Positions 4,510 to 63,984 of a DNA stretch of 64,000 nt are shown piece after piece (the first letter of the stretch is position 1; every line of letters begins with the position of its first letter). The position numbers and the translations under genes were made by a program. Source of the DNA: Ostreococcus lucimarinus (lineage: Eukaryota); assembly GCA_000092065.1 (NCBI GenBank), contig CP000587.1; one strand, 5' to 3'. The notes under the pieces are model-generated. The model had not been told where the DNA came from. It did no database searches and saw only the letters and a program-made list of their open reading frames with translations.

Positions 4510-4614
4510 CGAATCAAAGGGGAGGTTCAAGTTTTGTACACGACACACTAACACACACATCATAGAAGAGATCTCTTAATCATTAAGCGAAGCTATTCAC
4601 ATTACAAGTCGCCC

Positions 4615-32300: not shown

Positions 32301-33226
32301 CGTGGGAGCACCAAATTGGGGCGCTGCGCCCGAAACCCATCGAAGCCGCCGTCAAACGTCGAGAGCTGCTGCTTATCGAATTGAATAATGTGCGTAGAAA
32401 TCTTTCGCAAAAACTCGTAGTCGTGCGACACGCACATCACAGTCGTCCCTTCCAACGCGACTAAGTAATTTGCCAGCCATTCCACGGCGCTGACGTCCAA
32501 GTGATTCGTCGGCTCGTCGAGGAGCAACAAATCCGCTCGCTGCAACATCGCTCTCGCGATGGACAATCGCATCCTCCAACCGCCAGACAGTTCAGCCACG
32601 CTCTTTTTCATCATATCGTCGTCAAATCCGACCGACCGCAGGCTCGAGTCGATCGCGCTCGCGTCCGCCCCCCCGAACTCGTTCGCCTCATCCGCCATGA
32701 ACTTGACCACCGACGCGCTCAGCGTCACCAGCACCTCGTGTCGAACGAACACGCACTTGATCCCGGTCGGAAACCCCGCGATATCGCCCGCCGCGATTCG
32801 CGTCAACAGCGTCGTCTTTCCCGCGCCGTTATGCCCGACGACGCCGTATCGCGCCCCTCGCGTCAACGACAAGTTCGTCGGCCGCAGCAGCACCTTGGCC
32901 GCGTACGCCAGGATGATCCCTCTCAGGTCCAAAATCAACCCCTCCGACGTCCCGACGTCCTCCCTCGTCGACGTCGCGTTCGCCATCGTCGCCGCCGTCC
33001 CGTCGTCTCGCGCGCACATCGCTCGAACGTCGCCGTCGTCCATGTTTTCCTCCAGCACCGGCTGCACGAGCTCCATCAGCGCCTCCGTCGTCACCGCGCG
33101 TCCCTCGTCCGCCGCCTCGAGCGTCGCCTCTCGCAGCGCGCTCGCGACGTACTCGCGCACCTCCTCGTCCACGCCCGCGCGTCGCATGACGCCGTCGCAC
33201 CGCGCGAGCCAGGCGTCGTCGTCCAT
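29360..33226 (-). CDS. Four-NBD ABC-F type protein of 1288 aa. The N-terminal half is an eEF3-type ABC cassette with a chromodomain-like insert. The C-terminal half is an ABCF2/Arb1-type cassette.
   Basis: There are four Walker A and four signature/Walker B sets: GHNGAGKTTLL with LSGGWRMRLSIARAML...LLLLDEPTNHLD; GANGAGKTTLM with SGGQKSRLVLAAAMWTKPHIIALDEPTNYLD; GPNGCGKSMLL with LSGGWRMRVSLARALL...LLLLDEPTNHLD; GPNGAGKSTIL with LSDGQKSRLVFAMICL...MLLLDEPTNHLD. The first half is colinear with yeast eEF3 (GFPT..., RIAYIAQHSMHHLQAHLDMSPKEYIQTRF, insert YEVKKVGDRVGVTHWEPKRFL). The second half has the ABCF2-like DIYHLREEAEPSERSALEAV. ATG verified (CAT at 33224-33226). Confidence 0.75.
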   Translation of the reverse strand: MDDDAWLARCDGVMRRAGVDEEVREYVASALREATLEAADEGRAVTTEALMELVQPVLEENMDDGDVRAMCARDDGTAATMANATSTREDVGTSEGLILDLRGIILAYAAKVLLRPTNLSLTRGARYGVVGHNGAGKTTLLTRIAAGDIAGFPTGIKCVFVRHEVLVTLSASVVKFMADEANEFGGADASAIDSSLRSVGFDDDMMKKSVAELSGGWRMRLSIARAMLQRADLLLLDEPTNHLDVSAVEWLANYLVALEGTTVMCVSHDYEFLRKISTHIIQFDKQQLSTFDGGFDGFRAQRPNLVLPRMKKDMVDQIVATSNESGVIVDSGQNESNGRRRAASEANRLENTAGLVTAIRGVDTSSALAGGSSRMSSARAAREQPSSAAIVFPDPGPLDGIKSKTQVVARLEDLSFAYPNNQVLSGVYTRMYLSSRVAVVGANGAGKTTLMKNIVGELEPTGGSIWKHHNLRIAYIAQHSMHHLQAHLDMSPKEYIQTRFYQGRDKELAKMSTMSLTDDEKVEQQSRGSVCEILGRAVKGGELCYEVKKVGDRVGVTHWEPKRFLKVSYVVKMCKNYDEMMKAIQSGMDIRPLTSGEVYSHLRDFGISQELADGKIKRMSGGQKSRLVLAAAMWTKPHIIALDEPTNYLDNETLAALTAALRRFKGGVLTISHNASFVGDVCSDTWRVYQGKVTSSEDEARGVGASRKGGARRRRGEKNGTSVDESGDATKTDGKIVEGDVDRSVSGVLVSRKTALDLRFEQVSMSVNGNELIKDCVMELNVGRRYGLLGPNGCGKSMLLEAIAKRELEVPAHVDIYHLREEAEPSERSALEAVVDHIREEVSRLQAIESEILTTNGPGDERLQGIYERLEELDPVKFETTAAELLHNLGFDKVMMNRETKALSGGWRMRVSLARALLASPALLLLDEPTNHLDLSACVWLEDHLSKYKKCLVVISHSQDFLNGVCSHVIRVTNKTLKYYTGDFDTFRATLAAEEVIQQKQYEKEQADIKHLKEFIASCGTYADKMKQANSKQKILDKMEAAGLTPSPTAERTFEFTFPDCAKLAPPVLPFKNVSFRYHTADPSLGMLLENLEFGVDCDSRIALVGPNGAGKSTILKLMTGDIEASEGEVARHHHLSIGRYHQHSVDVLDPRASPLDFFSGTYYDMRKPTDEWRSYLGKFGISGRLQTNPIAALSDGQKSRLVFAMICLGNPNMLLLDEPTNHLDHDCIDSLADAINKYKGGLVLVSHDFRLIDKVAKEIWVCENKKVSVWKDSIRSYKKTLEKASIK

Positions 33227-52631: not shown

Positions 52632-53934
52632 GTCGAGCGACGCGCGCGTCGCCGAGCTCGATCGACGCGGGTACTACGTCGCCGTCGACGTCCCGCGCGG
52701 GGCGACGTTCGCGCTGGACACGGCGGAGTGGACGTGCGACGAACGCTTCGCGGGCGTCAAGGCGCTGACGCGTGGATTGCACTTCGTCGCCGTGCGCGAC
52801 GCGAACGAGCGAGGCGCGGGCGAACGCGTGGGAGAGTTCATCGACGCCGCGCCGGGAAGCGTGGAGATCCGGAGGTGGGACGCCGCGGTGGAGACGCTGG
52901 GGGAGGGAGAGGGGATGAGCGCGGAGGACGCGGAGCGCGCGCGCGCGGCGACGCGGGAAGGACGAGCGTTCGATGGAGGGTTAGCGTGGTATCCGACCGA
53001 GGTCGAGACGCGATGGATGGGATTGAGCGGATGGATCACGCGGGACAGCTTGCGGAGGTGTGGGGTGGATTGCGGGACGCGCGTGGTGGCGGGCGACCCG
53101 GAGGCGGAGACGCGCGGCGACGAACGGGGAGGAGTGGTGCCGTATTTCGATAACATACAGCGCGCGCCGACGTTTACGGTGAATGCGGTGCGGAAAAGGC
53201 CGAGTGGAATGACGCCGGCGGAGGTGTCGGCGATAAATATCGATGCGAACGCGCGGCTGGCGCACGCGGTGGCGTGCTTCGGCGACGACGGCTGGCGCGG
53301 GTTGTTGGGAGAGTTTCAACTCGCCTTCGTTCTCTTGATGGGGCTGTCCTCCATGGCGGCGTTGGAGCAGTGGAAACATCTCGCGCACGTGGTGTGCTCG
53401 TGCGCGGAGACGGCGGTGTTCGACTATCCGGAGCTTTACCTCGGGTTTGTCGACGCGCTCGATGCGCAGCTCGCGCGCGCGGGCGAAGACTTTTTCGTGG
53501 ACGATTACACCGAGGACAACTTCTTGCGGCCGTGCATGGTAGCACTGATGCGCATCGACGTCGACGACACCCCGAAGCGAGAAGTCACGGACATGGATGT
53601 CGAATCGACGCTGGACGCGATTTCGAGCAAGCTCGCCGCGCTCGCTCGCGGCGTGCGCGAGAAATTCGACGTCGACCTCATCGAGGAAGCTCGCGAGGCG
53701 AAGCTCGCGGACTCGAGCGTCGTCGACGCCGAAGAAGACGCCCCGGTCGTCGTCGAGTTGAGTGAGGGTCATTACATGGCCATGAACGCGACCGACGTCG
53801 ACGTCGAGTCCGACGCCTTCAAAACGGACGCCGAATCCGGCGCCGAGCGCATGGGCTGGATGCGCGCGTACGCGCCGACCAGCGCCGACCACACGCCGAG
53901 GAACGGTTCGAAATTCGTCAACCAACGGGCGTAG
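52630..53934 (+). CDS. AAR2: AAR2-family protein (U5 snRNP assembly/splicing factor AAR2 homologue).
   Basis: The N-terminus reads ...RRGYYVAVDVPRGATFALDTAEWTCDERFAGVKALTRGLHFVAV. The middle and C-terminal regions read GEFQLAFVLLMGLSSMAALEQWKHLAHVVCSCAE...EDFFVDDYTEDNFLRPCMVALM...DAPVVVELSEGHY. These are colinear with human AAR2 (GELQFAFVCFLLG...EHWKRL...DFFVD...DNFL...DCAPVVVELPEG). ATG at 52630 verified. Confidence 0.65.
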   Translation: MSSDARVAELDRRGYYVAVDVPRGATFALDTAEWTCDERFAGVKALTRGLHFVAVRDANERGAGERVGEFIDAAPGSVEIRRWDAAVETLGEGEGMSAEDAERARAATREGRAFDGGLAWYPTEVETRWMGLSGWITRDSLRRCGVDCGTRVVAGDPEAETRGDERGGVVPYFDNIQRAPTFTVNAVRKRPSGMTPAEVSAINIDANARLAHAVACFGDDGWRGLLGEFQLAFVLLMGLSSMAALEQWKHLAHVVCSCAETAVFDYPELYLGFVDALDAQLARAGEDFFVDDYTEDNFLRPCMVALMRIDVDDTPKREVTDMDVESTLDAISSKLAALARGVREKFDVDLIEEAREAKLADSSVVDAEEDAPVVVELSEGHYMAMNATDVDVESDAFKTDAESGAERMGWMRAYAPTSADHTPRNGSKFVNQRA

Positions 53935-54170
53935 AATCGAATCGGTCCCATGCCGCGGCATCCTCGGTCGTACGTCAGCGATTCCAACTTTTCGTGGAAT
54001 CCGCTCGCGTCGCGCAGGCACCCGGGCCAGATCTCGGCGTCGCTCGTCGCCTTCGAGCCTCGCCGCGACGTCGACATCGCGCGCGTCGCGTTCGTCGTCC
54101 CGCGGCTTGTGATCGTAATCTCACGAACGACCATCCGCGGCTTCGCCTCTCGCCTCTAACGGTAGGGGTC

Positions 54171-54566
54171 GGTGATGCTGAAATCTGCTACATGTTTTTC
54201 AGACTTTTTTTGCTACAAGTTTCTGAACTTTCAGCCAATTTTTGCTACAACTTGTAGCAACTTTCAGACAATTTGCACGCAGAAAGTCTGAAACTTGCTA
54301 CGTCTCCGGTGATGCTGAAATCTGCTACATGTTTTTCAGACTTTTTTTGCTACAAGTTTCTGAACTTTCAGCCAATTTTTGCTACAACTTGTAGCAACTT
54401 TCAGACAATTTGCACGCAGAAAGTCTGAAACTTGCTACGTCTCCGGTGATGCTGAAATCTGCTACATGTTTTTCAGACTTTTTTTGCTACAAGTTTCTGA
54501 ACTTTCAGCCAATTTTTGCTACAAGTTGTAGCAACTTTCAGACTTTGGTGTAGCAAGTTTCAGACT
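54171..54566. repeat. Tandem array of a 137-bp unit, about 2.9 copies. It is AT-richer than its surroundings and internally palindromic.
   Basis: ggtgatgctgaaatctgctacatgtttttcagactttttttgctacaagtttctgaactttcagccaatttttgctacaacttgtagcaactttcagacaatttgcacgcagaaagtctgaaacttgctacgtctcc restarts at 54171, 54308 and 54445, and the third copy is truncated. The units contain the perfect palindrome gctacaa-c-ttgtagc and the inverted pairs tttcagact / agtctgaaa. Confidence 0.85.
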
Positions 54567-54836
54567 GACCCCCTCTCGCCCGAAATCGACATTCGGCGTC
54601 CGCGTCACCAATTCAACGAACTCGCCGGCATTGATCGGGCGCGACGTCACGCGTGCGCGCGAACGAAGCGAACGAAGCGAACGACGCGACCGCTCGATCG
54701 AACGGCGCGACGACGCGAACGACGCGACCGCTCGATCGAACGGCGCGACGGCGCGACGCGCGCCGGCGCGACGAATCGAATTCGCGTCGCGCGATTCGTT
54801 GAATTGCGATTGCGCATCGACGGTCGACGGTGAACC

Positions 54837-56609
54837 ATGGCGAACGCGCTGATCGCGTTTACGCTCGCGAACGCGGCGTGTGAGCTGGTGACGCCGATAC
54901 GGTACGCGCGGACGATGACGCTGTGGAGCCGAGGACGCGGGGATTGCGGAGAGACGGCGAAGATTGGAGCGGTGTGCGGGTACCTGATTCAAATCGCGGC
55001 GACGTTTACGTGGTACGAACTCGCGGTGCTGGGAATCATCCCGGGCGGCGCGAGCGACGGTACGGTGGACTTTGAATTGCGATTGATACATCAAATGTTC
55101 ACGTACGTGACATTCGGAGCGGTGTTCGCTATTTGGCTGGACGACCTCGCCGTCGTCGGCGCGCCCGTTTCGTGGTGCTCGTCGCTGGCGAGATTGTACC
55201 AGTTCTTCTCGACGCGAATGATCGCGTGCATGATGATCATGGCGAGTCGAAAAACGCCAACGGCGTGGCATCCGTTCTGGACCGCGGCCGGTTACACGGC
55301 CAGCGCGGTAAAGGGCGCGGGAACGGACGTAATTCTTAAATATGCGTACTACTTTTGCCGAGCTGGGTTCAGCGTTGTGTCCATGGCGATAGCGCTGACG
55401 GGGGTATTTTACTGGAATCCAGTTCGCGCCTGGTTTATCCGCGTAGAAGATTCTCAATCGCGCGCGAGTCGCACTTCGAACCGCAAGGAGATGATGCGAA
55501 CCATCTTTTGGCACTGTGCGTTTGGTCTGATTTTCAGCGCAATTTGGATCACGGCGTCGAATTCAGGAATTCCTCGCATCGATGCCATCAAGGGGGCATC
55601 TAGATCTACCATGTCTACGCATTACTTCGAGCCTTGGATTCCGGGACACCAGATCATCCACGCGAAGAATCACGGGCAAACGATGATAGCGGTTGCATAC
55701 GCCACTTTTATCGCGTACTCATTGAACTATATGGACGACGGCGGTTTGTGGATCTCAAAAGTTCTCTCAATTCAACTGCCCGCCCAGATTTACAACTTTT
55801 TTGTTGTTATTTACATCATCGTCGCCCTTGGTGGTGGAACCATCTTTCATCCAACCTGGTACACGAATGGTTGGGCCCCAAGCTGGGCGACACATCGTAT
55901 GCTGGATTGGCTCTTCTTCGTTGGTACTGGTCATCTGACTATTTTCGGTGTTCCACTCATCACGTACGCGCTTCTCAAGCATCTCAGTATTCCCGAATTT
56001 AAGCCGTATGCGACTGCTTCCATGGGCTTCTTTACCAAGTGCATGCGTCATGGAATGGTATCAATTTTGTTTTCTGGGCTGTGGATGATGGCCGTCAGTA
56101 CGGGCGTGCCCATGCCAGATGCCAAACTCACAGCCATGTTTGGACTTCCCCCTCTACACAAACTCGACGTGCGAGAAACTATCAAGATGCATCACGTCGA
56201 TATCATCGTGAGCATAATTATTATGGCGAACGGTTACGCCGTGCTGGCTCTCGACCGCGTTGTTCAGCTGGATTACAAGCTGCATCAATTCATCACTGTC
56301 GTATGGAAGCACTCGATGACCAGTCGATGGGTGTACTTTTGGTGTGCGAAAATTCTCTTGCATAGCGGCGAGCGTTTTACTACACCGAACGTTATCGCCT
56401 CGCTCTTGCGCTTCCGATCGCAAGTTAAGTCTACCAGCAGTGACAACTGGTTTTTCGTTTTGATCGCCGTCATGGAACTGTACTCTTTCACCGCGATGAT
56501 GCTCTTATTTCTCTTCACACTCACCCGAATGGCTCGTGCCAGTGTGGCTTACTTGAGAAATAACGGCCAAGGTCAGGTAAACTGGACAACCGGCCTGAAG
56601 CAAGAATAG
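54837..56609 (+). CDS. Polytopic membrane protein of 590 aa and unknown family. It may be a paralogue of the N-terminal membrane module of the lipoxygenase fusion at 58138..63984.
   Basis: ATG at 54837 verified. There are at least 12 hydrophobic helices, rich in Trp/Tyr. It shares short colinear motifs with the fusion protein's N-terminal region: EPWIPGHQ vs SHSWIPALRQ, HPTWYTNGWAPSW vs LLYTNLWYQG...MPEW, and STGVPMPDAKL vs TSGIPHPVPLSD. GC drops along the gene. Confidence 0.5.
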   Translation: MANALIAFTLANAACELVTPIRYARTMTLWSRGRGDCGETAKIGAVCGYLIQIAATFTWYELAVLGIIPGGASDGTVDFELRLIHQMFTYVTFGAVFAIWLDDLAVVGAPVSWCSSLARLYQFFSTRMIACMMIMASRKTPTAWHPFWTAAGYTASAVKGAGTDVILKYAYYFCRAGFSVVSMAIALTGVFYWNPVRAWFIRVEDSQSRASRTSNRKEMMRTIFWHCAFGLIFSAIWITASNSGIPRIDAIKGASRSTMSTHYFEPWIPGHQIIHAKNHGQTMIAVAYATFIAYSLNYMDDGGLWISKVLSIQLPAQIYNFFVVIYIIVALGGGTIFHPTWYTNGWAPSWATHRMLDWLFFVGTGHLTIFGVPLITYALLKHLSIPEFKPYATASMGFFTKCMRHGMVSILFSGLWMMAVSTGVPMPDAKLTAMFGLPPLHKLDVRETIKMHHVDIIVSIIIMANGYAVLALDRVVQLDYKLHQFITVVWKHSMTSRWVYFWCAKILLHSGERFTTPNVIASLLRFRSQVKSTSSDNWFFVLIAVMELYSFTAMMLLFLFTLTRMARASVAYLRNNGQGQVNWTTGLKQE

Positions 56610-56806
56610 TCCGTGAGCAATGGACTTAATTAAAAACTTTCTGCGACTTACTACTCTTTACATCAACTGAAAACGGTCAAGAAGTGTTCGCACACCGGTT
56701 GCTATACAAAAGCCGTTTGTGCACTTTTGCCATAGCATTCTGGAACCTTGTGCGACTTCGAAAAGGATGCTTGATACAATACATATGAATATGCTATGAC
56801 TATTAA

Positions 56807-57859
56807 TTACGCTAATTTCGATGCTCGTGAAGACGAATGCGGCGCGCCATCGAGCGATTCATTGTCATGTAGTAGAACGCTGATGTATTCAAGCATCGCT
56901 TGCCCCGCCGTGTCATTCAGAATTTCCTCAAAGGAGAGTGATCCGCGATTCGAGATATCGATGCGCTCGAAAAGCTCTTTTATGTCTCGTGCGTCGACGC
57001 CCCACGTGAACAATTGCTCACGGAGCTCGCTCCCATCTAACGTGCCATTACCATCCTTATCCAGCACATCAAAAGCTGTCCGTAACGGCGTCTTACCGAT
57101 TCGCAAACGTACCAACGAATTCACTCTACCACAGATAGCTGCAAAATTGCGTTCTTTTCCGCTTTCCTCGGATCCGCACGCGTTGGAATACGCGGCAATG
57201 ATGACTATGGCAATGAGGGCACCCACGGGACCGTACACTGCTGGTATGACTAAAAACAGTGCAAGAGTTGCCCCTGTCGTGTACCGGTGCTCCTTAATAC
57301 CCGGAACATTCGTGAACGCAAATATAAACATTCTGGAATACACGAACCCCTGCGCGAGAACGAGCTGGTCGATGAAATTTTCCAATACGGCGCCGCTCGA
57401 GTCTGACGAAAGCGCGCCGGCTCCAATCAGCACTCGAAACGCTTTTTCGATGTGCGCGGTGTTTATAATGTGCAATGCAGGAGTTATAATAGACGGTGTC
57501 CCAAACGATGCGTCGATTTGAAGCATCGCCGTGAGCGCGATCACCAACACGCACGCCGCGCTCGCGCGCATCGTACCCCTCGCGCCGCCGCCGACCAGCA
57601 ACGCTCGCGCGCCCAACGTCAGCTCCATCGTTCCGAAGGCCACGTGCACCAACAGGCGCCTCGCTCGTCGACGATTCAGTCTAAATTTAGGATGCATGCG
57701 CTTCTTGCCCGCTCGAGCGTAGCCCAAGACGAGGAAAATCTCGAGCACGTACCCGATGACAATCACGGCAATCTTTTGCGTTCGCTGCTCGCTCGCCTCG
57801 CGCACGGTCCCACCGAACGCGTACGCACCGAGCGGGAGATCATACGTCCATGCGAACAT
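56807..57859 (-). CDS. Multi-pass membrane protein with a C-terminal EF-hand pair (putative Ca2+-binding).
   Basis: ATG verified (CAT at 57857-57859). About 6 TM helices are followed by ...AFDVLDKDGNGTLDGSELREQL... (canonical 12-residue EF loop DKDGNGTLDGSE) and ...LFERIDISNRGSLSFEEI (a second, weaker EF loop). Confidence 0.5.
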   Translation of the reverse strand: MFAWTYDLPLGAYAFGGTVREASEQRTQKIAVIVIGYVLEIFLVLGYARAGKKRMHPKFRLNRRRARRLLVHVAFGTMELTLGARALLVGGGARGTMRASAACVLVIALTAMLQIDASFGTPSIITPALHIINTAHIEKAFRVLIGAGALSSDSSGAVLENFIDQLVLAQGFVYSRMFIFAFTNVPGIKEHRYTTGATLALFLVIPAVYGPVGALIAIVIIAAYSNACGSEESGKERNFAAICGRVNSLVRLRIGKTPLRTAFDVLDKDGNGTLDGSELREQLFTWGVDARDIKELFERIDISNRGSLSFEEILNDTAGQAMLEYISVLLHDNESLDGAPHSSSRASKLA

Positions 57860-58137
57860 TTACGCGTGCGTATCGAACGCGCGTCGTCGGGTCGAGACGA
57901 ACGCGTCGCGGTGTTCGGTTGGCCGTTGAGCGGGTTTGGGAAGTGCTTGTTTGAACGTTGTGCTTTTGCTTAAATAGTAAAACTGGTAGCGCGACAAACG
58001 CGTTATCGCACGATAAACGCGCTATCGTTGGGAATGTATCCAAAACTACGAATAGGCCGCAGGCTCGCGGCGGGAAGTCTTGCTCGTGGTGAGTTGGTTC
58101 ACCCACCGATTTTTGGAATTTTGACGCAACAGTGGCT

Positions 58138-60115
58138 TTACACACCAATGTTGCTCGGCACGCGTTCTGGGTGCATGTAAGGATATGCCTTTACTCCAAG
58201 CTTTGCGTTGCGGTTTTCGATCTGGCGTCCCATGGCACGCAGCTCAGAACGGAGATCTTGGAGAGCGGCGATTTCAGCCGGCGTAATCATCATGTCAGTG
58301 ATGTAATGTCCGACAAAAACCTCTTCTTTTGAGAACTGTGAAAGCGTCCAGCCAGTCGCCATCGTCTGCGCCGCTTGACCGACGCTCGGCAGCGCGTCGA
58401 TAACATCTTTTTCCGTCACCGGAACCTTCTTCGTCGGCGCAGGCTTGCGCATGATGAGCGGACGATTTGGACAATAAGAGTAATAGTCCCACTGGCTGAA
58501 GTTGACTGCGGCGTGAGTAAAAGAGCACGTGTACATCACTGACGTGCAGATATCAACAAGTTGATCGATTGAATCGATACTACCCGGCACACCGTGCTGA
58601 CTTCTGTCCGTGCCTTGGTATCCATAGCCTTGCATCTCAAGAATCATGCTCTGTATGTATGGATCGGCGGCAACTTCCGCGTCAGACGTGTAGTGCAGCT
58701 TGAAGATGCTTTTAGCGAAACGACGAAGACAGGCCCATGCTCGCAACGAGTCGTCACGATGATGATAACCTCTCAAATCTCCCTCACTTAGCACGCCACG
58801 TTTTTTAAAGGAGGTCGGAACGTGCAAATCGTCAAGCTTAAATCTCTGGTACGCTTTGCTCATCAAGTCCATGTGACCTCCTTGGCCAACTGCTACGACG
58901 CGATCAGTAACTCCTCCCGGAGATATTAACAACGACCGCCCAAGGGTATTGATGGCAATCACGTAGATGAGATGAGGACGCAATACCCGGTACACAGGAT
59001 GGTTTCTTGGAAGAGTTCTTTCGACGCAGACGGACCACGGTTCCATGAGCAAGTGCGTGCCCAATAGGTGCGATATCATCTGATGTACGTTTCCGTCAGA
59101 GCACATTAAGTGCGCTTTTGCGAGGAGCCACTCGTACTCGCCATCTTTTGGAGTCCATACCGGCGCGCTAGCACCAGACTGAAAGTGCTGGATGCAGATT
59201 GGGCGAAGTGCCGTGCTCTTGTCCGCAAAGAAGAGAGCCATGGAGTTCTCGACGCAGTAGCCTTGACCGCGCTTGATATCCTCAAGGATTTCATAGTCAA
59301 CCATGAATATGTGCCCTGCTGCCAACTCGCTTTCGAGCGTTTTGCCTGGAGGTAAAACGCCTCTTACATGTTCTTCGGTGACGCGAAACTTGGCTGGAAT
59401 TTGAGACACTTTGCGCACTTGATTTGGATGTGTTCCATTCATAAATTGACGACCAAACTCCTCGTCCGAACGCCAGTCTCTGATGATTGCAACAGGGGGG
59501 AGAGAAGCGTAAAGGCGATAGTAGTCATCCAGCGATTTAATTTCTTCGTCCTTGATCATTTCGGCGACGCCTTTATTTTCGAATCCCACAAAAGTATCGA
59601 CAAAGAAGTCCTTGTATTTTGTTGAGCTGAATTGCTCCGTGATGGGGAGCTTTGAGTGGTCGTCATATGTGCTATGATTTGGCAAGTACGAACCATTCGA
59701 CCAATCGAATTCCTTCTTCATGAACGAAAGGTACTGTTCAGTCGCATCGGCGATCAGTTGGCGACAAGCCAAGCTTGTTGTCGGCGTAATGGAGCACGGA
59801 AGAACGAATCGGACACCTTGGCCAATGTATCGCCACACATTCAACGTGAAACTCGTTGGAATTTGCGAAGTGAACGTCACATCTATCCGACCGCAATTCC
59901 AAGAGCTTTTCGAGGTTTGAGAAATAATGGCGTAAGCTGGCTCTCCAATATCGTCGGCGTGCACGAAGTGCGTGCTGATTGCTCCAGTTGCGAAGGAGTC
60001 ACCGAGATCATGCAGGACGATTTTGGGCGTAGCGCCACGCGTTCCGACGAATTGTAGCACCACATCACCGTCTATTCCAGACCCAGCGATTGAATGCGTC
60101 GTAACTTTGATCGTA
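58138..60115 (-). other. PLAT domain (about 59700..60115) plus lipoxygenase catalytic domain (58138..about 59700). Coordinates are approximate.
   Basis: KYTIKVTTHSIAGSGIDG is encoded at plus about 60066-60120. AHLMCSDGNVHQMISHLLGTHLLME is encoded at plus about 59045-59115. Confidence 0.6.
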
Positions 60116-63100
60116 TACTTTTTTGACGCTTCAGGAGCGTAAACGTCTTTTCGTCCGCGGGTGAAAACGCGGCGAATTTTATATGACGTCTCGTAAACCA
60201 CCGCACGCGTCCAGTTCAAGGAGTTATAGTCTTGCGAGTTGATTGGTCGAGTGAGAGGCATGCAAGCCGGAGTACGATTCATACCGAACGATAAATTCTC
60301 AACCGAGTGTTGCGGGAGTGCGGCGTGAAGTCTCACGACTCCAACGTCGAGAAATTCAGTCCCCCAAGCTTTGTTGGGGTTGAAAATTTCCGCGGTATCC
60401 GAAGAAGTGGCCTCATATAACTGGATTTGAAGTCGGTACCTCACGGCTTCGCCCGCCACCTTGGTGCAGAACTCGTTTCGCAGATAGTCAGGCAAACGTT
60501 TCTCGTTCGGTAGTCGACGATATTTCATCATATGTGTCGTTGCGATCAGGTTCTGGTCAGCCTCGTCAGGCAAGAACGGCTCTTGACCGACGTCCGTCCC
60601 AGGGCCAGCTCCGTATGGAACGAGTCTGAACTTGCAGTATCGCTTTTTGCCATCCAAAGCATGGAATTCGCGACAAGTCTGCGAGTAATAATGTAAATCG
60701 CAGTACGAGTCGGGTGCCCTTCGCACCCCGCCGATACCAGCCTTAATGCCTGTGGGATACTTCATTCCCCATGCCTTGTAAGCGGAGTCGTTAAACGTCG
60801 CCATTTGAAATACGAACGGAAGAAACGAATCCAAGTTGAAAAATCCAGCGAATTCACCAGTGTTCAGGTGCAGATCGAATGGACTTTCGTCGACGGCATT
60901 TGAGAACTTCAGCGCACAACCTCGAATCTCAAGAGATGCGTCGTCATACATTTCCGAGTCGGCGAGCTTCACGCCGACGGCGTTCGAGTGCCTCAAGATG
61001 ATTGGCATCGTCTTGCCCTTCGTAAAGAAAGCATTTTTGGGCACCTTACTGTTCTCGATGACGGTGAATTGCCCGATCGCACCAACACCGACTGGATGGG
61101 TCGGGCGCCTTTTCTGCATCAGAGTGCCAAACACGAACATGAAAGCAATCTTCAACTGCATCACCAGCAACCCAAACGCATTGGGAGGTGGCATTGGAAT
61201 GGGAAACTCGGAATTCGAGGCTGCGTCGAACATTTCATCTCCGAAAGCGGCTTTATAACACTTGACCCAGTGATTTTGCCACTGTGACACCACCGCGACC
61301 AATGGCCTTGGAGAGGTGGATGGCGACTTCGACAAAATACGACCGAAACTCGACTTTCGCATCGTACTCATCTCATCCGGAACCACAATGCCCCGCTTAA
61401 ATAGTGCAGCAATGAACCTTACCTTGACGGTACTGAGCATCACCACTCGGTTTTTAACCGAATGGATCAACTTTTGAGTGGCTTTGGCGAATTGGAACCA
61501 GACATAAGTCCAACCCATGGTGTGGAGGAACAGCGAAAGCGTCAAGGGTGTACTGGTGTAACCGCAAAGCCACGAGAACCGCGAAACAAACACCAGCATG
61601 TGCATGAAATACACTCCACGGACGACTCTCATCACAGGTTTCAAGAATCGACCAAACGACGAGACGCCGCTTGTAAGGACTGAATGTGTCAGCGCGAGAG
61701 TCAAGAGACAGAAGTATCCAACGTGAAAGGAATCCTCGATGATACTGTCAGCCGATTCAAACGCGGAGAGAGTCATGAGCCGTCGACGAAGGAGGTCAAC
61801 CATCGAGTTCGAAAGAGCGCCCGCGCCAATAATACGCACTAACCTGATGAGAATATGCCAGATGTGAGATAATGCACCCAGTGTGCACATCATCTTCGTC
61901 GTCTTCTGGATTGCATGAAAACGCGACCTCGCCTCCTTCGACGTTTCGTGCGTATTCACGAGAGCAATGTGCTGCAAGTACACCCGAAGCCAAGCCAGGC
62001 ACAGTAAGATGATTTGAACATCAGTCTCGACGCTTTCTAGGTATGCATTTTCGAAGCGCTTTGCGTCACAACTGCGCAACGGGCATCCTAAGAGTATGTG
62101 AACGAGGGTTCGTGAAACTTTATCACTCTTGCCCGTCAGCGCCTTGTAATAGAGTGAGATAATCACAAACCACAAAGTGATAGTGCTCTGCGCAAAAGTA
62201 TTCATGGAGAGTGCGACTCCTTTTGGAAAAGAAGGGTTCATGAGATTGTGGGCAGCGAAAGATAACAGTAGAGGACTGATTGCGGACATTCTTGGAACTG
62301 GCTTCGGTGCGATCAAGTACGTGTCTGAAAGCGGCACAGGATGCGGTATACCACTCGTTAGCAGAGCGATCGGAAGCATAGCGCAGAGGACAAGGACCCC
62401 ATTTATCCATGCACACTTCTCTACCTGCCGTTGCAAAGCGAAATGCTTCAGCACAAGCATGCGCCAGCGTCCACGCAAATTCGTGAAACCCGTTCGCTGG
62501 CCGCTCGAATCCGGATTTCTGGAAAGGTGAACGGCGCCTCGTACGCACGCGTAGATTGAGAGCATCATGATGAGCCAGATAGTGAAATCAACCCCCACCC
62601 AATCACTGGGAGCGTGATGTAACTTTCGCGTCCACGGATTGGACATAGCACGAGCCACCAGAAAATGATCGCAGAGAGTGTAGGAAACAGACATTGCCAT
62701 CACGCCGTAGATCAATCTGGCGCTTCTTAGCGTTCGTTGGTCAGAAAATGCGCTCTTTCGAATCACGGCGGTGCTTATACCCACGAACGCGTGCAACACG
62801 ATGGAGTATTGCATCATTGAAATGCGAGCCAACTCGGCGTCGCCGCGCAGCAGCGCGTGTTCCTTGCTGAACCGTAAGCGCAGGACGGGAAAAGAAAGAG
62901 TTGACAAGCGGCGTGCGATGGTGCGGAGGATTGGAAAGTTGACCTTCAAAAGTGGTACCTGAAGGCGACCCCACTCTGGCATCATCACACCGGTGGCGAT
63001 GCCCTGGTACCACAAATTTGTGTACAGGAGACTCCCCAGTATGAACAAATGCGCCATGGATGCCAGGGAGACACCAAACATGTGGAATCCTTTGCGAGTC

Positions 63101-63984
63101 GGCCCGACGAAAATGGGACCGTTAAACGCGTGGTGAAAGAGAATGTTCATCAGGGCGGCCGTCATGATTGTGAAGAAGGGCATGTTGATAGAGAACCTGA
63201 ACCAGTCCGGCAGTGATCCGTGCGTTATGATGATCAACGCGAGAAGGCTCTTCGACGCTATCATGACGAACAGTGCGCCGAATGAACCTTGCCGCAGTGC
63301 AGGAATCCACGAATGAGATAGAATGCCAGTGACGAAGAGACCGGCGGAACACATACCGATGGTGTTTGGATTGCGCATGTTCGCCAAAGCGGAGAAGTGT
63401 CGACCGAACTCGAGTACGAAGATCGCCCCGCCGATGTAACAGATGCTAAATAGCACAGCCAGACGTTCGTGCATGATAAATAGCGTCGACGCTGATCGAG
63501 GTTTGGGAATCTTGAAATACCTGACCCGTTTCTCCGGCGGCACGTCCACCACGCCCAAGCGGCTCACGCGAATCAAACAAAATTTACCCAACGCGCCCAG
63601 ACCGTCCACGGACACCATGAGCGCTCCGACCGCGCAGTTCGGCATCTTCATCATCAACCGTAATCCATAAAGCGTCACGAACGCCAGCTGCGTTTCAGTC
63701 GCGTAATGCGTGTACGCGTCGCTCCCCGTGCACACGTACGACCACCCAATCGCGTGCACGCACGAGAACACGTACACCCACAGCGCCAGGCACGTCCCAT
63801 CGAACGAATTGAACACCAAATCGTTCGCGATCGCCCCGACGACCGCCGGCCGCGTTCGATCGCGCGCCACCGCCGCGTACGTCACGTACGCCGTCGACAG
63901 CACGTAATTGATTCCCTGCAACGCGTGGAAACGCCCGACCGACCATCCGGGCCTTAGCGCGTCGCTCGCCGCGTCGCTCGACAT
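58138..63984 (-). CDS. Fusion protein of 1948 aa. It combines an N-terminal polytopic membrane module, a catalase-related (allene-oxide-synthase-like) hemoprotein domain, a PLAT/LH2 domain and a lipoxygenase.
   Basis: This is one uninterrupted ORF with a verified ATG (CAT at 63982-63984). The catalase-like core HPVGVGAIGQFTVIENSKVPKNAFFTKGKTMPIILRHSNAVG...LEIRGCALKF parallels catalase [41 protein letters not shown]...FAVKF. The PLAT domain reads YTIKVTTHSIAGSGIDGDVVLQFVGTRG...NCGRIDVT. The LOX iron-ligand region reads HQMISHLLGTHLLMEPWSVCVERTLPRNHPVYRVLRPHLIYVIAINTLGRSLLISPGGVTDRV (compare HQLxSHWLRTHxxxEPF...HPIYKLLxPH...IN.LAR..LI..GG), and the C-terminus ends ...PSNIGV. The N-terminal 900 aa or so are Trp-rich multi-TM. 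Confidence 0.75.
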   Translation of the reverse strand: MSSDAASDALRPGWSVGRFHALQGINYVLSTAYVTYAAVARDRTRPAVVGAIANDLVFNSFDGTCLALWVYVFSCVHAIGWSYVCTGSDAYTHYATETQLAFVTLYGLRLMMKMPNCAVGALMVSVDGLGALGKFCLIRVSRLGVVDVPPEKRVRYFKIPKPRSASTLFIMHERLAVLFSICYIGGAIFVLEFGRHFSALANMRNPNTIGMCSAGLFVTGILSHSWIPALRQGSFGALFVMIASKSLLALIIITHGSLPDWFRFSINMPFFTIMTAALMNILFHHAFNGPIFVGPTRKGFHMFGVSLASMAHLFILGSLLYTNLWYQGIATGVMMPEWGRLQVPLLKVNFPILRTIARRLSTLSFPVLRLRFSKEHALLRGDAELARISMMQYSIVLHAFVGISTAVIRKSAFSDQRTLRSARLIYGVMAMSVSYTLCDHFLVARAMSNPWTRKLHHAPSDWVGVDFTIWLIMMLSIYACVRGAVHLSRNPDSSGQRTGFTNLRGRWRMLVLKHFALQRQVEKCAWINGVLVLCAMLPIALLTSGIPHPVPLSDTYLIAPKPVPRMSAISPLLLSFAAHNLMNPSFPKGVALSMNTFAQSTITLWFVIISLYYKALTGKSDKVSRTLVHILLGCPLRSCDAKRFENAYLESVETDVQIILLCLAWLRVYLQHIALVNTHETSKEARSRFHAIQKTTKMMCTLGALSHIWHILIRLVRIIGAGALSNSMVDLLRRRLMTLSAFESADSIIEDSFHVGYFCLLTLALTHSVLTSGVSSFGRFLKPVMRVVRGVYFMHMLVFVSRFSWLCGYTSTPLTLSLFLHTMGWTYVWFQFAKATQKLIHSVKNRVVMLSTVKVRFIAALFKRGIVVPDEMSTMRKSSFGRILSKSPSTSPRPLVAVVSQWQNHWVKCYKAAFGDEMFDAASNSEFPIPMPPPNAFGLLVMQLKIAFMFVFGTLMQKRRPTHPVGVGAIGQFTVIENSKVPKNAFFTKGKTMPIILRHSNAVGVKLADSEMYDDASLEIRGCALKFSNAVDESPFDLHLNTGEFAGFFNLDSFLPFVFQMATFNDSAYKAWGMKYPTGIKAGIGGVRRAPDSYCDLHYYSQTCREFHALDGKKRYCKFRLVPYGAGPGTDVGQEPFLPDEADQNLIATTHMMKYRRLPNEKRLPDYLRNEFCTKVAGEAVRYRLQIQLYEATSSDTAEIFNPNKAWGTEFLDVGVVRLHAALPQHSVENLSFGMNRTPACMPLTRPINSQDYNSLNWTRAVVYETSYKIRRVFTRGRKDVYAPEASKKYTIKVTTHSIAGSGIDGDVVLQFVGTRGATPKIVLHDLGDSFATGAISTHFVHADDIGEPAYAIISQTSKSSWNCGRIDVTFTSQIPTSFTLNVWRYIGQGVRFVLPCSITPTTSLACRQLIADATEQYLSFMKKEFDWSNGSYLPNHSTYDDHSKLPITEQFSSTKYKDFFVDTFVGFENKGVAEMIKDEEIKSLDDYYRLYASLPPVAIIRDWRSDEEFGRQFMNGTHPNQVRKVSQIPAKFRVTEEHVRGVLPPGKTLESELAAGHIFMVDYEILEDIKRGQGYCVENSMALFFADKSTALRPICIQHFQSGASAPVWTPKDGEYEWLLAKAHLMCSDGNVHQMISHLLGTHLLMEPWSVCVERTLPRNHPVYRVLRPHLIYVIAINTLGRSLLISPGGVTDRVVAVGQGGHMDLMSKAYQRFKLDDLHVPTSFKKRGVLSEGDLRGYHHRDDSLRAWACLRRFAKSIFKLHYTSDAEVAADPYIQSMILEMQGYGYQGTDRSQHGVPGSIDSIDQLVDICTSVMYTCSFTHAAVNFSQWDYYSYCPNRPLIMRKPAPTKKVPVTEKDVIDALPSVGQAAQTMATGWTLSQFSKEEVFVGHYITDMMITPAEIAALQDLRSELRAMGRQIENRNAKLGVKAYPYMHPERVPSNIGV
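60120..61200 (-). other. Catalase-related (cAOS-like) heme domain. Coordinates are approximate.
   Basis: RRPTHPVGVGAIGQFTVIENSKVPKNA is encoded at plus coordinates about 61065-61145 (reverse complement). Confidence 0.55.
61280..63984 (-). other. N-terminal polytopic membrane module of the fusion. Coordinates are approximate.
   Basis: It contains at least 15 hydrophobic helices. Only the first 300 nt or so (63700-63984) are GC-rich. The rest matches the low-GC body. Confidence 0.45.

What the first reader, a model, noticed from the sequence alone, without database searches (positions are those of the whole stretch)
54171..63984. Lower-GC island encoding a co-oriented set: TM module, EF-hand membrane protein and the TM-AOS-PLAT-LOX fusion, bounded by a tandem repeat
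The sequence is about 65-70% GC up to about 54100. From the 137-bp repeat onward it becomes visibly AT-richer, by eye roughly 45-52% over 55500-63700. Examples are ...tttacatcatcgtcgcccttggtggtggaacc... and ...aaatattgttttgattcgcgtg.... Within this island lie three things. The first is a standalone 590-aa polytopic protein that shares short colinear motifs (WIP..., YTN[GL]W...PxW, [ST][ST]G[VI]P[MH]P) with the N-terminal module of the LOX fusion. The second is a multi-TM protein ending in an EF-hand pair. The third is the fusion itself, whose PLAT domain is classically Ca2+-dependent for membrane binding. This looks like a functionally linked Ca2+-regulated membrane oxylipin unit. All three genes begin with a short GC-rich 5' segment (54837-55500, 57500-57859, 63700-63984) before dropping to low GC. 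That pattern would fit foreign or atypical coding sequence grafted behind native-like 5' ends, or an atypical chromosomal compartment.
Basis: partly seen in the sequence, partly recalled or inferred. Interest (0 to 1): 0.7.

Follow-up and report, generated by a model that had tools for sequence, protein, structure and literature searches.

The report
Conserved algal membrane oxylipin gene cluster
This stretch of the tiny green alga Ostreococcus lucimarinus is native DNA, not a foreign island: its low GC follows a gradient seen in every gene nearby, but its three genes, one of them a coral-type lipid-oxidising enzyme fused to a large membrane domain, stay together across related species and probably work as one unit.

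Summary
The window is Ostreococcus lucimarinus CCE9901. The GC drop is real: 0.51 over 55.5-63.7 kb against 0.63 over 22-54 kb. It is not special. A 4820-aa glucan (callose) synthase gene in the same window has GC 0.50. All 25 genes start GC-rich and decay 5'->3', with GC3 = 0.57 + 0.30·exp(-d/482 codons). The "GC-rich 5' graft" is therefore a general property of genes here. A small extra GC3 deficit remains for the 590-aa and EF-hand genes.

The genes are not co-oriented (+, -, -). Paralogy between the 590-aa protein and the fusion's N-terminus is not supported (hhalign probability <1%). The 590-aa protein does carry an internal duplication.

The linkage idea gains support. The trio is adjacent in four other Ostreococcus lineages, in two gene orders and with different neighbours. 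The pairing of the 590-aa gene with the fusion persists in a distant relative. A third lineage pairs a 590-aa homologue with a sterol-sensing/patatin/EF-hand fusion.

The fusion's C-terminal 1048 aa align end-to-end with coral cAOS-8R-LOX, and all catalytic residues are kept. Two specificity residues are of the hydroperoxide-lyase type. The 870-aa membrane module is an orphan under purifying selection. No evidence of horizontal transfer was found.

The parts
54170..54580 (.). AT-rich 137-bp tandem repeat. It has two perfect copies and one 77% copy. It is built from GCTACA/TTTCAGAC sub-motifs and a TTGCTACAASTTGTAGCAA palindrome. It lies between AAR2 and the 590-aa gene.
   Evidence: TRF and the repeat finder. 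One unit fewer in contigs L002, L005 and L006. The motif is absent from the other species' loci and from viral contigs.
54660..54756 (.). GC-rich 38-bp minisatellite, 2.5 copies, 80 bp upstream of the 590-aa gene's ATG. It is also copy-number variable.
   Evidence: One unit is missing in L002 and L006.
54837..56609 (+). TM590: a 590-aa polytopic membrane protein (XP_001418669 / A4S024). It belongs to an orphan family with no Pfam or PDB match.
   Evidence: Only 6 relatives were found, plus L015_583 (24% identity, E = 3e-21).
55188..55589 (+). TM590 internal repeat unit 1 (aa 118-251), ending in the motif SNSGIPRID.
   Evidence: hhalign of the N-half against the C-half: probability 92%, E = 5e-7, 115 columns. 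Alignment of the 12 units is.
55782..56126 (+). TM590 internal repeat unit 2 (aa 316-430), ending in the motif STGVPMPDA.
56807..57859 (-). 350-aa membrane protein with a C-terminal EF-hand pair (XP_001418900 / A4S025). It converges on TM590.
   Evidence: Orthologues sit next to TM590 in L008, L010, L012 and L014.
56918..57088 (-). EF-hand pair (aa 258-314), resembling the calmodulin C-lobe. Loop 1, DKDGNGTLDGSE, is canonical. Loop 2, DISNRGSLSFEE, has Arg at position 5, where the orthologues have Asp.
   Evidence: Pfam EF-hand_7 E = 6.5e-10. Calmodulin hits at about 1e-9. Alignment.
58138..63984 (-). 1948-aa fusion ORF: TM module, linker, catalase-related heme domain, PLAT, then LOX. The NCBI gene model (XP_001418901, 1031 aa) covers only the C-terminal part.
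   Evidence: The ORF is uninterrupted and colinear in four species (A1).
61375..63984 (-). N-terminal polytopic membrane module (aa 1-870). It is an orphan family.
   Evidence: Only 5 hits among 1.84 billion cluster representatives. No Pfam or PDB match. dN/dS is 0.25-0.35 between distant pairs. A homologous 743-aa ORF abuts the AOS-LOX gene in L015.
61285..61374 (-). Variable linker (aa 871-900), with possible internal start codons at M874 and M877.
   Evidence: Poorly conserved and rich in indels in A1. dN/dS is about 0.8 or higher.
60145..61284 (-). Catalase-related heme domain (cAOS/cHPL type, aa 901-1280). Heme and catalytic residues are R960, T962, H963, R998, N1041, R1260, Y1264 and R1271. 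Specificity positions are F1054 and P961, both of the lyase type.
   Evidence: End-to-end alignment with 3dy5. The residues are invariant in A1. Residue roles are from PMC5617202.
59839..60117 (-). PLAT/LH2 beta-barrel (aa 1290-1382).
   Evidence: Pfam PF01477 E = 2e-4, 22.5 bits, just below the cut-off of 23. It aligns with the coral 8R-LOX PLAT domain.
58141..59772 (-). Lipoxygenase catalytic domain (aa 1405-1948). Iron ligands are H1634, H1639, H1824, N1828 and the C-terminal V1948. Gly1682 occupies the position that governs R/S stereochemistry.
   Evidence: Pfam PF00305 E = 1.3e-67. PDB hits: coral 8R-LOX 2e-106, human 5-LOX 1e-97. The residues are invariant in A1.

Best explanation
The region is native Ostreococcus lucimarinus DNA. 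It carries a conserved three-gene cluster for membrane-bound, probably Ca2+-controlled, oxylipin formation. It is not a compositional island of foreign origin.

SHOWN.
(1) Every gene in the window starts GC-rich and decays 5'->3' towards about 50% GC. The fit is GC3 = 0.573 + 0.300·exp(-d/482 codons). Long genes are therefore GC-poor. The fusion behaves like the glucan synthase and GCN1 genes.
(2) The fusion is one conserved ORF. An orphan 870-aa polytopic module is joined to a catalase-related heme domain, PLAT and LOX. That C-terminal part is colinear with the coral cAOS-8R-LOX fusion, and all heme and iron ligands are intact.
(3) TM590, the TM-EF-hand gene and the fusion stay adjacent through rearrangement and changes of flanking genes in Ostreococcus. 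The TM590-fusion pair persists in a distant relative.

INFERRED MECHANISM. The N-terminal module holds the enzyme permanently in a membrane. The LOX domain oxygenates polyunsaturated acyl chains, free or lipid-bound. Gly1682 predicts R stereochemistry. The hydroperoxide then passes to the adjacent heme domain. That domain makes an allene oxide or, given F1054 and P961, more likely cleaves the chain as coral cHPL does. The EF-hand membrane protein couples activity to a Ca2+ rise caused by stress, wounding or virus. TM590 is an internally duplicated membrane protein that serves as an accessory for substrate supply, product export or regulation.

TM590 and the EF-hand gene lie slightly below the GC3 curve in every species examined. 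This fits weakly or inducibly expressed genes.
For: Organism and gene identities.

GC.
- island 0.510, glucan synthase body 0.498, 22-54 kb 0.628.
- GC3 decays from 0.82 to about 0.56 in all 25 genes.
- exponential fit. Spearman correlation of gene length with GC3 is rho = -0.82, p = 3e-6 for the 22 other genes. The fusion's residual is -0.04, within the range of the other genes.
- the same profiles appear in orthologous loci and in GCN1, SET and ABC1.

Fusion.
- 3dy5 E = 7.5e-162 over query residues 2-1045.
- colinear ORF in four species with invariant catalytic residues.
- TM module dN/dS 0.25-0.35, enzyme domains 0.08-0.09.
- residue roles from PMC5617202.

Linkage.
- trio adjacent in 5 lineages, in the orders [590+ EF- LOX-] and [LOX- 590+ EF-]. 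Flanks are AAR2/GCN1; 2OG-oxygenase on the left; and SET on the left with beta-helix and 5'-nucleotidase on the right.
- in L015 and L021 a TM590 homologue is divergent from TM-module + AOS-LOX.
- in L007 and L019 a TM590 homologue converges on a sterol-sensing/patatin/EF-hand fusion.

Context. Oxidised galactolipids, including a 13-carbon oxidised chain attributed to LOX plus lyase, have been reported in O. mediterraneus. That species has a single LOX gene and no recognised downstream enzyme (bioRxiv 10.64898/2026.02.10.705097).
Against: - No expression or biochemical data are available, so co-regulation and Ca2+ control are inferred only.
- The three membrane modules have no detectable homologues of known function. 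AlphaFold models failed (pLDDT 39).
- No EF-hand gene lies beside the cluster in the L015/L021 lineage.
- In a genome this compact, neighbours can stay adjacent for a long time without any functional link. A local transposition would keep them close by default.
- TM590 and the EF-hand gene remain 2.5-4 sd below the GC3 curve. The gradient therefore does not explain everything, and the background is only 22 genes.
- The Ca2+ ligands of the PLAT domain were not checked.
- The second EF-hand loop of the O. lucimarinus protein is non-canonical.
Confidence: 0.6

Rival explanations
1. Foreign or horizontally acquired island: low-GC coding sequence from another organism grafted behind native GC-rich 5' ends.
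For: The region is 12 GC points below the 22-54 kb stretch. TM590 and the EF-hand gene have the two lowest GC3 residuals of 25 genes. The closest solved homologue of the enzyme part is cnidarian, not plant. An AT-rich tandem repeat sits at one edge.
Against: The same 5'-rich/3'-poor profile occurs in all 25 genes, including glucan synthase, ABC1 and GCN1. The cluster is present in at least 4 other Ostreococcus lineages and in part in a distant relative, so any transfer would be ancient and its composition would have equilibrated. No integrase, transposase or tRNA is present. Pattern scans found no bacterial, archaeal or viral relatives. The repeat is specific to O. lucimarinus and varies in copy number.
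Confidence: 0.05
2. Atypical chromosomal compartment: part of a low-recombination, low-GC region like the Mamiellales outlier chromosome or mating-type region.
For: Such regions exist in Ostreococcus, with a sharp 9-17% GC drop (PMC8557840). The O. mediterraneus LOX carries a chromosome-2 gene identifier. All three genes lie below the fitted GC3 curve.
Against: Within the window, low GC tracks single long gene bodies and alternates with GC-rich short genes. It does not form a contiguous block. Each gene's 5' end returns to GC3 of 0.75-0.86. The flanking genes are ordinary housekeeping genes of normal composition.
Confidence: 0.07
3. The three genes are neighbours through inherited synteny only. 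The enzyme works alone, and the two small membrane proteins are functionally unrelated.
For: Gene density is very high. All the Ostreococcus lineages are fairly close. A local transposition keeps genes near each other by default. The EF-hand gene is missing from the L015 locus. No expression data are available.
Against: The flanking genes differ between lineages while the trio persists. TM590-fusion adjacency is kept at 24%/44% protein identity. A third TM590 lineage sits next to another membrane-anchored lipid enzyme with EF-hands.
Confidence: 0.25
4. TM590 is a very diverged paralogue of the fusion's N-terminal module, so the cluster arose by duplication.
For: Short colinear motifs are shared: WIP, YTNxW and [ST]xG[IV]PxP. 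The only local alignment, which is not significant, falls on the [ST]xG[IV]PxP motif that closes each TM590 repeat unit.
Against: BLASTP gives E = 0.015 over 20 aa. hhalign gives probability 0.2-0.4% with 6-8-sequence profiles and with a 12-unit repeat profile. phmmer of the module against 1.84 billion representatives does not retrieve the TM590 family. The motifs are not conserved in the distant members of either family.
Confidence: 0.1

Closest known systems
[quoted passage not shown]
   Same: The domain order is the same in one polypeptide: catalase-related heme domain, PLAT, LOX. The alignment runs end to end (E = 7.5e-162). Heme residues R64, T66, H67, R102, N137, R349, Y353 and R360 are all conserved, as are the LOX iron ligands. 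Gly occupies the stereocontrol position, as in the R-type coral enzyme.
   Different: An 870-aa polytopic membrane module with no known relatives precedes it. The coral enzymes are soluble or peripheral. The residues that separate coral AOS from lyase are of the lyase type here: F at position 150 and P at position 65. The NL pair is AG. The host is a green picoalga, not a cnidarian. The gene sits in a conserved cluster with two membrane-protein genes.
5'->3' decreasing GC3 gradients along genes in GC-rich plant genomes (grasses; PMC4684703, PMC5460877) and GC-biased gene conversion in Ostreococcus (PMC8557840, PMC5635611)
   Same: Steep decline of GC3 from the start codon. Negative correlation between gene length and GC3. 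GC is held above the mutational equilibrium.
   Different: It is seen here in an almost intron-less picoalga, with a length constant of about 480 codons, measured on only 25 genes. I could not establish whether this gradient has been described for Mamiellales.
Ca2+-activated lipid-mediator modules in animals (cPLA2 C2 domain; 5-LOX and 11R-LOX PLAT domains; 5-LOX with its membrane partner FLAP)
   Same: A lipoxygenase works at a membrane together with small integral membrane partner(s) and a Ca2+ sensor.
   Different: Here the Ca2+ sensor is an EF-hand pair on a separate membrane protein. The membrane anchor is covalently fused to the enzyme. The partners share no homology with FLAP. The genes are physically clustered.
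Sterol-sensing/Patched + patatin + EF-hand fusion next to a TM590 homologue (metagenomic loci L019/L020)
   Same: The design is the same: a polytopic lipid-handling membrane module fused to a lipid-metabolising enzyme, with EF-hands, and adjacent to a TM590-family gene in the same convergent orientation.
   Different: The enzyme is different (phospholipase, not LOX), and so is the membrane module (a recognisable sterol-sensing domain). The EF-hands are in the same polypeptide.

Membership tests
Catalase-related AOS/HPL-lipoxygenase fusion proteins (coral type) | Catalase-related heme domain with a proximal Tyr, distal Thr-His and Asn, and heme-binding Arg residues | tested here: met
   Y1264, T962-H963, N1041, R960, R998 and R1271 align with coral Y353, T66-H67, N137, R64, R102 and R360 (roles from PMC5617202). 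All are invariant in 4 species.
Catalase-related AOS/HPL-lipoxygenase fusion proteins (coral type) | Single polypeptide with the order heme domain, PLAT, LOX, colinear with the coral protein | tested here: met
   One alignment covers query residues 2-1045 and 3dy5 residues 3-1063, E = 7.5e-162. Pfam finds Catalase, PLAT and Lipoxygenase in that order.
Catalase-related AOS/HPL-lipoxygenase fusion proteins (coral type) | LOX iron ligands: three His, one Asn and the C-terminal carboxylate | tested here: met
   H1634, H1639, H1824, N1828 and the C-terminal V1948 are invariant in A1 and aligned with coral 8R-LOX.
Catalase-related AOS/HPL-lipoxygenase fusion proteins (coral type) | Allene-oxide-synthase (rather than lyase) specificity residues: L150, A65, NL176-177 | tested here: not met
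   The aligned residues are F1054, P961 and AG. F150 and P65 are the cHPL states (PMC5617202). The 'AOS' label is therefore unverified.
Catalase-related AOS/HPL-lipoxygenase fusion proteins (coral type) | Soluble or peripheral protein of about 1066 aa with no transmembrane region | tested here: not met
   An 870-aa hydrophobic N-terminal module is present, with at least 6 strongly hydrophobic segments. It is conserved in frame in 4 species.
Catalase-related AOS/HPL-lipoxygenase fusion proteins (coral type) | Dioxygenase activity plus hydroperoxide-converting activity | not testable with these tools
   This needs recombinant enzyme and product analysis.
EF-hand Ca2+-binding proteins | Paired helix-loop-helix motifs with a canonical 12-residue loop | tested here: met
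   PF13499 E = 6.5e-10, above the cut-off. Loop 1, DKDGNGTLDGSE, is canonical. Loop 2 has Arg at position 5 in O. lucimarinus and Asp in the orthologues.
Ca2+-dependent PLAT/C2-like membrane-binding domain | Acidic Ca2+ ligands and exposed aromatic residues in the PLAT loops | not tested
PMC7436259 states that Ca2+ regulation of PLAT domains is not universal.
Horizontally acquired genomic island | Composition unlike the host's own genes | tested here: not met
   Body GC is 0.510 against 0.498 for the native glucan synthase. The fusion's GC3 residual lies within the range of the other genes. TM590 and the EF-hand gene are modest outliers.
Horizontally acquired genomic island | Absent from sister genomes | tested here: not met
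   The trio is present in L008, L010 (O. tauri-like), L012 and L014. It is partly present in L015.
Horizontally acquired genomic island | Mobility genes, a tRNA target or donor-like relatives | tested here: not met
   No such genes are present. No tRNA or Rfam hit was found. Pattern scans found no bacterial, archaeal or viral relatives. These scans are of limited sensitivity.
Paralogy of TM590 with the fusion's N-terminal module | Significant sequence or profile similarity | tested here: not met
   The best hhalign results are E = 0.03-0.4 with probability below 2%.
Mamiellales low-GC outlier (mating-type-like) region | A contiguous sharp GC drop spanning many genes | tested here: not met
   Within 64 kb, low GC is confined to long gene bodies and alternates with segments of 0.6-0.75 GC. 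The chromosome-scale context was not examined.
Conserved functional gene cluster in a eukaryote | Adjacency of non-homologous genes kept across species despite rearrangement | tested here: met
   Two gene orders and at least 3 flanking contexts. The TM590-fusion pair is kept in L015 and L021.
Conserved functional gene cluster in a eukaryote | Co-expression or a shared pathway | not testable with these tools
   No transcriptome data were available here.

The most novel reading that the evidence does not exclude
Ostreococcus and its relatives carry a conserved, operon-like three-gene module. In it an integral-membrane catalase-related lyase/AOS-lipoxygenase acts directly on lipids of its own membrane. 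It is gated by a dedicated EF-hand membrane protein and assisted by a previously unknown, internally duplicated membrane-protein family (TM590). That family also partners with other membrane-anchored, Ca2+-sensing lipid enzymes. On this reading the module is the missing oxylipin pathway behind the oxidised galactolipids and 13-carbon fragments seen during prasinovirus infection.
Probability: 0.25. Interest if true: 0.7.

Novelty: new variant of a known kind. Interest (0 to 1): 0.5.

Why it matters
For genome scanning: in this genome a low-GC stretch with GC-rich gene starts is the normal signature of long genes. It should not be read as foreign DNA.

[quoted passage not shown] This work gives four new leads.
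- The single LOX is a coral-type fusion that already carries the second enzyme, a catalase-related AOS/lyase domain.
- The public gene model omits 917 N-terminal residues, including the entire 870-aa membrane module.
- Two unannotated membrane-protein genes travel with it.
- The TM590 family is linked to Ca2+-sensing lipid enzymes in three separate gene contexts, which gives a testable entry point to the function of an orphan family.

These results make the origin of virus- and stress-associated oxidised lipids in a key marine picoalga directly testable.

Tried and rejected
- Foreign island or graft: rejected on the gene-wide GC3 gradient and on presence in sister lineages.
- Paralogy of TM590 with the fusion's N-terminus: tested by BLASTP, by hhalign on whole proteins, halves and a 12-unit repeat profile, by profiles enriched with distant members, and by phmmer against 1.84 billion representatives. 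All were negative.
- Homology of the EF-hand protein's membrane part to either of the other proteins, or to the sterol-sensing/patatin protein: negative apart from the generic EF-hand.
- The search for homologous proteins with the N-terminal 900 aa returned nothing, because the word-index candidates were saturated. With the enzyme part it returned only 4 hits. I therefore could not map the taxonomic spread of cAOS-LOX.
- AlphaFold2 of TM590 (6-sequence alignment) and of the EF-hand protein (single sequence) gave pLDDT of 39 and 39.5. No fold search was attempted.
- Pfam at E <= 1 on 11 membrane-module and TM590-family sequences (7 distinct proteins), plus PDB profile searches: no family found.
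- Pattern scans of metagenome, bacterial/archaeal and viral collections added no new loci.
- A 'distance to the nearest promoter' model did not remove the GC3 deficit of TM590 and the EF-hand gene.
- Reading the Ca2+ ligands of coral LOX PLAT domains failed because the paper is not held.
- An intron that would explain the frame break in L015 could not be identified with confidence.

Full report
IDENTITY AND ANATOMY

Exact-sequence look-ups place the window in Ostreococcus lucimarinus CCE9901. The 590-aa ORF is XP_001418669 (A4S024) and the 350-aa ORF is XP_001418900 (A4S025). The lipoxygenase is annotated only as a 1031-aa protein (XP_001418901 / A4S026), although the open frame is 1948 aa.

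The window is an intron-poor, gene-dense eukaryotic stretch. It holds AAR2, an ABC1 kinase, a DEAD helicase and a 4820-aa glucan synthase.

The three genes of the finding are:
- 54837-56609 on the + strand, called TM590 here;
- 56807-57859 on the - strand, a membrane protein with an EF-hand pair;
- 58138-63984 on the - strand, the fusion.

They are therefore not co-oriented. TM590 and the EF-hand gene converge, and the EF-hand gene and the fusion are in tandem.

THE COMPOSITIONAL OBSERVATION

The GC drop is real. In 200-bp windows, 55.5-63.7 kb averages 0.510 against 0.628 for 22-54.1 kb (p = 2e-17). It is not a singular island, for three reasons.
- 23 of the 64 one-kb windows are below 0.55 GC.
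- The body of the glucan synthase gene (8-21 kb) is at 0.498.
- GC3 in 100-codon bins falls from the start codon in all 25 genes of the window. The mean is 0.82, 0.80, 0.74, 0.70, 0.68, 0.66 and about 0.56 beyond codon 800.

A fit to the 22 genes outside the trio gives GC3 = 0.573 + 0.300·exp(-d/482 codons). For those 22 genes, gene length and GC3 correlate at rho = -0.82 (p = 3e-6).

The fusion's mean residual is -0.04 by distance from its own start. That is inside the range of the other genes, -0.058 to +0.072. By distance to the nearest start it is -0.07. It appears in the glucan synthase, in ABC1, and in GCN1, the housekeeping gene just beyond the window's end.

Comparable gradients are known in GC-rich plant genomes and are attributed to recombination-linked GC-biased gene conversion (PMC4684703, PMC5460877). 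Ostreococcus GC is thought to be held above its mutational equilibrium by that process (PMC8557840, PMC5635611).

A residue remains. TM590 (-0.09 to -0.10) and the EF-hand gene (-0.16 to -0.17) are the two lowest of the 25 genes under both models. The gene-level sd of the other genes is 0.041. The same steep profiles appear in their orthologues in other species, next to different neighbours, and the L015 homologues are also below their neighbours. The deficit therefore travels with the genes. I read it as a signature of weak or inducible expression. That is an inference, and the background is only 22 genes.

THE TANDEM REPEAT

The 137-bp repeat (54170-54580) is real, AT-rich and internally built from GCTACA/TTTCAGAC sub-motifs and a palindrome. 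A 38-bp GC-rich minisatellite follows at 54660-54756.

Near-identical environmental contigs differ by exactly one unit at each repeat, in three combinations. Assembly collapse cannot be excluded.

The motif occurs nowhere else in the window. It is absent from the orthologous loci of other species and from viral contigs. It is a local intergenic VNTR, not a conserved boundary.

It lies where other species have the fusion gene head-to-head with TM590, so it may mark the rearrangement breakpoint. That is speculation.

THE FUSION

The C-terminal 1048 aa align in one piece with the Plexaura homomalla allene oxide synthase-lipoxygenase fusion (3dy5, E = 7.5e-162, query 2-1045 against chain 3-1063). 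The next best hits are coral 8R-LOX and 11R-LOX and human 5-LOX. Plant LOXs are far weaker, at about 1e-36 to 1e-41.

Using the residue roles given in PMC5617202, all heme-domain residues are kept. Coral R64, T66, H67, R102, N137, R349, Y353 and R360 correspond to R960, T962, H963, R998, N1041, R1260, Y1264 and R1271. The LOX iron ligands are also kept: H1634, H1639, H1824, N1828 and the C-terminal V1948. All are invariant in four species.

Gly1682 aligns with the coral Gly at the position that, from my memory of Coffa and Brash 2004, specifies R stereochemistry.

The positions that separate coral AOS from coral hydroperoxide lyase are of the lyase type here. F1054 corresponds to cHPL F150, where cAOS has L150. 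P961 corresponds to cHPL P65, where cAOS has A65. The NL pair is AG. 'AOS' is therefore a homology label, not an established activity.

Homology with the coral protein starts at W902, upstream of the NCBI model's start at M918, so that model is too short.

The preceding 870 aa are hydrophobic. They are open and colinear in four species, with indels in multiples of three. They are under purifying selection, though weaker than for the enzyme: dN/dS is 0.25-0.35 against 0.08-0.09, and the linker is near neutral.

This module is an orphan.
- phmmer against 1.84 billion representatives found five proteins. One is an ortholog and two are short fragments at 61-66% identity; the other two are distant, a 214-aa protein at 35% and a 301-aa protein at 28% identity.
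- No Pfam or PDB family matches it.

TM590 AND THE PARALOGY CLAIM

TM590 has six relatives in the 5.8-billion-protein search and no Pfam or PDB match.

Residues 118-251 and 316-430 align at hhalign probability 92% and E = 5e-7. Each unit ends in [ST]xG[IV]PxPDA. The distant member P0006 makes the relationship plainer.

No test links TM590 to the fusion's N-terminal module.
- BLASTP: E = 0.015 over 20 residues.
- hhalign: probability 0.2%.
- Halves against thirds: best E = 0.03 across six comparisons.
- Repeat-unit profile: E = 0.4.
- Profiles enriched with distant members: probability 0.4%.

The shared motifs are real and colinear, but they are not conserved in the distant members of either family. 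Paralogy is not supported. A fold-level relationship cannot be excluded, because both AlphaFold attempts failed (pLDDT 39).

LINKAGE

Look-ups of the TM590 relatives returned the following contigs.
- L008: LysM, 2OG-oxygenase, LOX(-), a 1.7-kb gap, TM590(+), EF(-).
- L010: LOX(-), TM590(+), EF(-), beta-helix, 5'-nucleotidase. This contig is O. tauri-like, because the nucleotidase falls in a 90% cluster with XP_022840034.
- L012: SET, LOX(-), TM590(+), EF(-).
- L014: TM590(+), EF(-), LOX(-), the same order as in O. lucimarinus.

The trio thus persists in two gene orders and at least three flanking contexts.

A more distant lineage (L015/L021) has a LOX part 44% identical and a TM590 homologue 24% identical (E = 3e-21). 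There the TM590 homologue is divergent from a 743-aa homologue of the N-terminal module (E = 1e-9). That ORF abuts a 1182-aa catalase-PLAT-LOX ORF.

The frame break between those two ORFs recurs in many assemblies. It is either a short intron or a real split. No EF-hand gene was seen there. Head-to-head TM590/fusion is therefore probably the ancestral arrangement.

A third TM590 lineage (P0006/P0097) is 29-31% identical to the O. lucimarinus protein and 35% to the L015 copy. It converges on a 1367-aa protein that combines a sterol-sensing/Patched membrane domain, a patatin phospholipase and EF-hands.

TM590-family genes thus sit beside membrane-anchored lipid enzymes carrying or accompanied by Ca2+ sensors in three independent contexts. 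This is association evidence, not proof.

ORIGIN

Nothing points to recent transfer.
- The genes are shared by sister lineages.
- There are no mobility genes, tRNAs or Rfam hits.
- Pattern-based scans of bacterial/archaeal and viral collections were negative, though these scans have limited sensitivity.

The enzyme part is 'animal-type' by its closest solved homologues. An ancient transfer or an ancient eukaryotic origin remains open. My protein searches were too candidate-limited to map its distribution.

MECHANISM

Shown: the anatomy and the conservation.

Inferred: the N-terminal module anchors the enzyme in a membrane. The LOX domain oxygenates polyunsaturated chains there. The heme domain converts the hydroperoxide, either to an allene oxide or, given F1054 and P961, by chain cleavage. 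The EF-hand membrane protein supplies Ca2+ control. TM590 is an accessory membrane protein.

With a covalent anchor, the classical Ca2+-driven membrane targeting by PLAT would be redundant. PLAT Ca2+ regulation is also not universal (PMC7436259). I could not check the ligands.

Literature context:
- I found no paper in the held library that combines Ostreococcus, catalase-related and lipoxygenase.
- cAOS-LOX fusions are discussed as cnidarian enzymes (PMC5793058).
- A 2026 preprint on O. mediterraneus reports oxidised galactolipids, including a 13-carbon oxidised chain ascribed to LOX plus lyase. It finds a single LOX gene and 'no clear orthologues' of oxylipin-pathway enzymes.

The present architecture offers a candidate for that missing step.

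VERDICT

The compositional 'island' is an ordinary consequence of a gene-wide GC gradient acting on one very long gene and two medium-sized genes. The foreign-graft, co-orientation and paralogy claims fail. The idea of a linked, probably Ca2+-controlled, membrane oxylipin unit is strengthened by comparative synteny. It comes with a new variant of the cAOS/HPL-LOX fusion and two orphan membrane-protein families. Interest is moderate, at 0.5.

Noticed in passing
window 1-64000 (all 25 genes): There is a strong 5'->3' decline of GC3 in every gene: 0.82 at the start, falling to about 0.56 beyond codon 800, with a length constant of about 480 codons. Gene length and GC3 correlate at rho = -0.82. 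Low-GC segments of this genome therefore mark long genes.
   Followed up: yes
window 7303-21765 (-): A single 4820-aa ORF has its FKS1/glucan-synthase domains only in the last ~2000 aa (FKS1_dom1 at 2822-2933, Glucan_synthase at 3903-4559). The N-terminal ~2800 aa have no Pfam assignment. The exact sequence is not in the protein collection.
   Followed up: no
window 58138-63984 (-) against XP_001418901: The public gene model for the lipoxygenase (1031 aa, starting at M918) omits 917 N-terminal residues: the whole membrane module and the first ~16 residues homologous to the coral enzyme. Metagenome gene callers report the full 1948 aa.
   Followed up: yes
window 54170-54580 and 54660-54756; L001, L002, L005, L006: Both intergenic repeats (137 bp and 38 bp) differ by exactly one unit among near-identical environmental contigs, in three combinations. 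This suggests natural VNTR polymorphism, although assembly collapse is not excluded.
   Followed up: partly
window 60823-60825 (F1054) and 61102-61104 (P961): In the catalase-related domain, the residues that distinguish coral hydroperoxide lyase from allene oxide synthase are of the lyase type. The domain may cleave hydroperoxides rather than make allene oxides.
   Followed up: partly
window 56918-56992 (second EF-hand): The second EF-hand loop of the O. lucimarinus protein reads DISNRGSLSFEE, with Arg at position 5. All four orthologues have a canonical Asp (D[AT]S[HR]DGALSF[AE]E). This site may have lost Ca2+ binding in this species.
   Followed up: partly
L019 12063-16166 (-), L020, L007: A 1367-aa fusion of an NPC1/Patched-type sterol-sensing membrane domain, a patatin phospholipase and EF-hands lies convergent to a TM590-family gene in another picoeukaryote lineage.
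   Followed up: partly
L015 / L021 / L022 7773-13549 (+): In a distant relative, the homologue of the membrane module (743 aa) and the catalase-PLAT-LOX ORF (1182 aa) overlap by 4 bp in different frames. The break recurs in many independent assemblies, so it is either a short intron or a real two-gene state.
   Followed up: partly
window 54519-55514 (-), 56796-57521 (+), 51619-53934 (+, upstream part): Long ORFs lie antisense to, or extend upstream of, real genes in the GC-rich 5' regions. Their GC is concentrated at codon position 1 rather than position 3, so they look spurious. The AAR2 gene probably starts near 52630, not 51619.
   Followed up: partly
window 29360-33226 (-): A 1288-aa ORF has four ABC_tran stretches and an ABC_tran_Xtn domain. 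It appears to be a doubled ABC-F-type protein. GCN1 lies just beyond the window's end.
   Followed up: no
L008 8279-10000: In one species the fusion and TM590 are separated by 1.7 kb holding 333-aa and 103-aa ORFs with no family match. In L010 and L012 the gap is only 263-388 bp. This may be an inserted gene or a spurious ORF.
   Followed up: no
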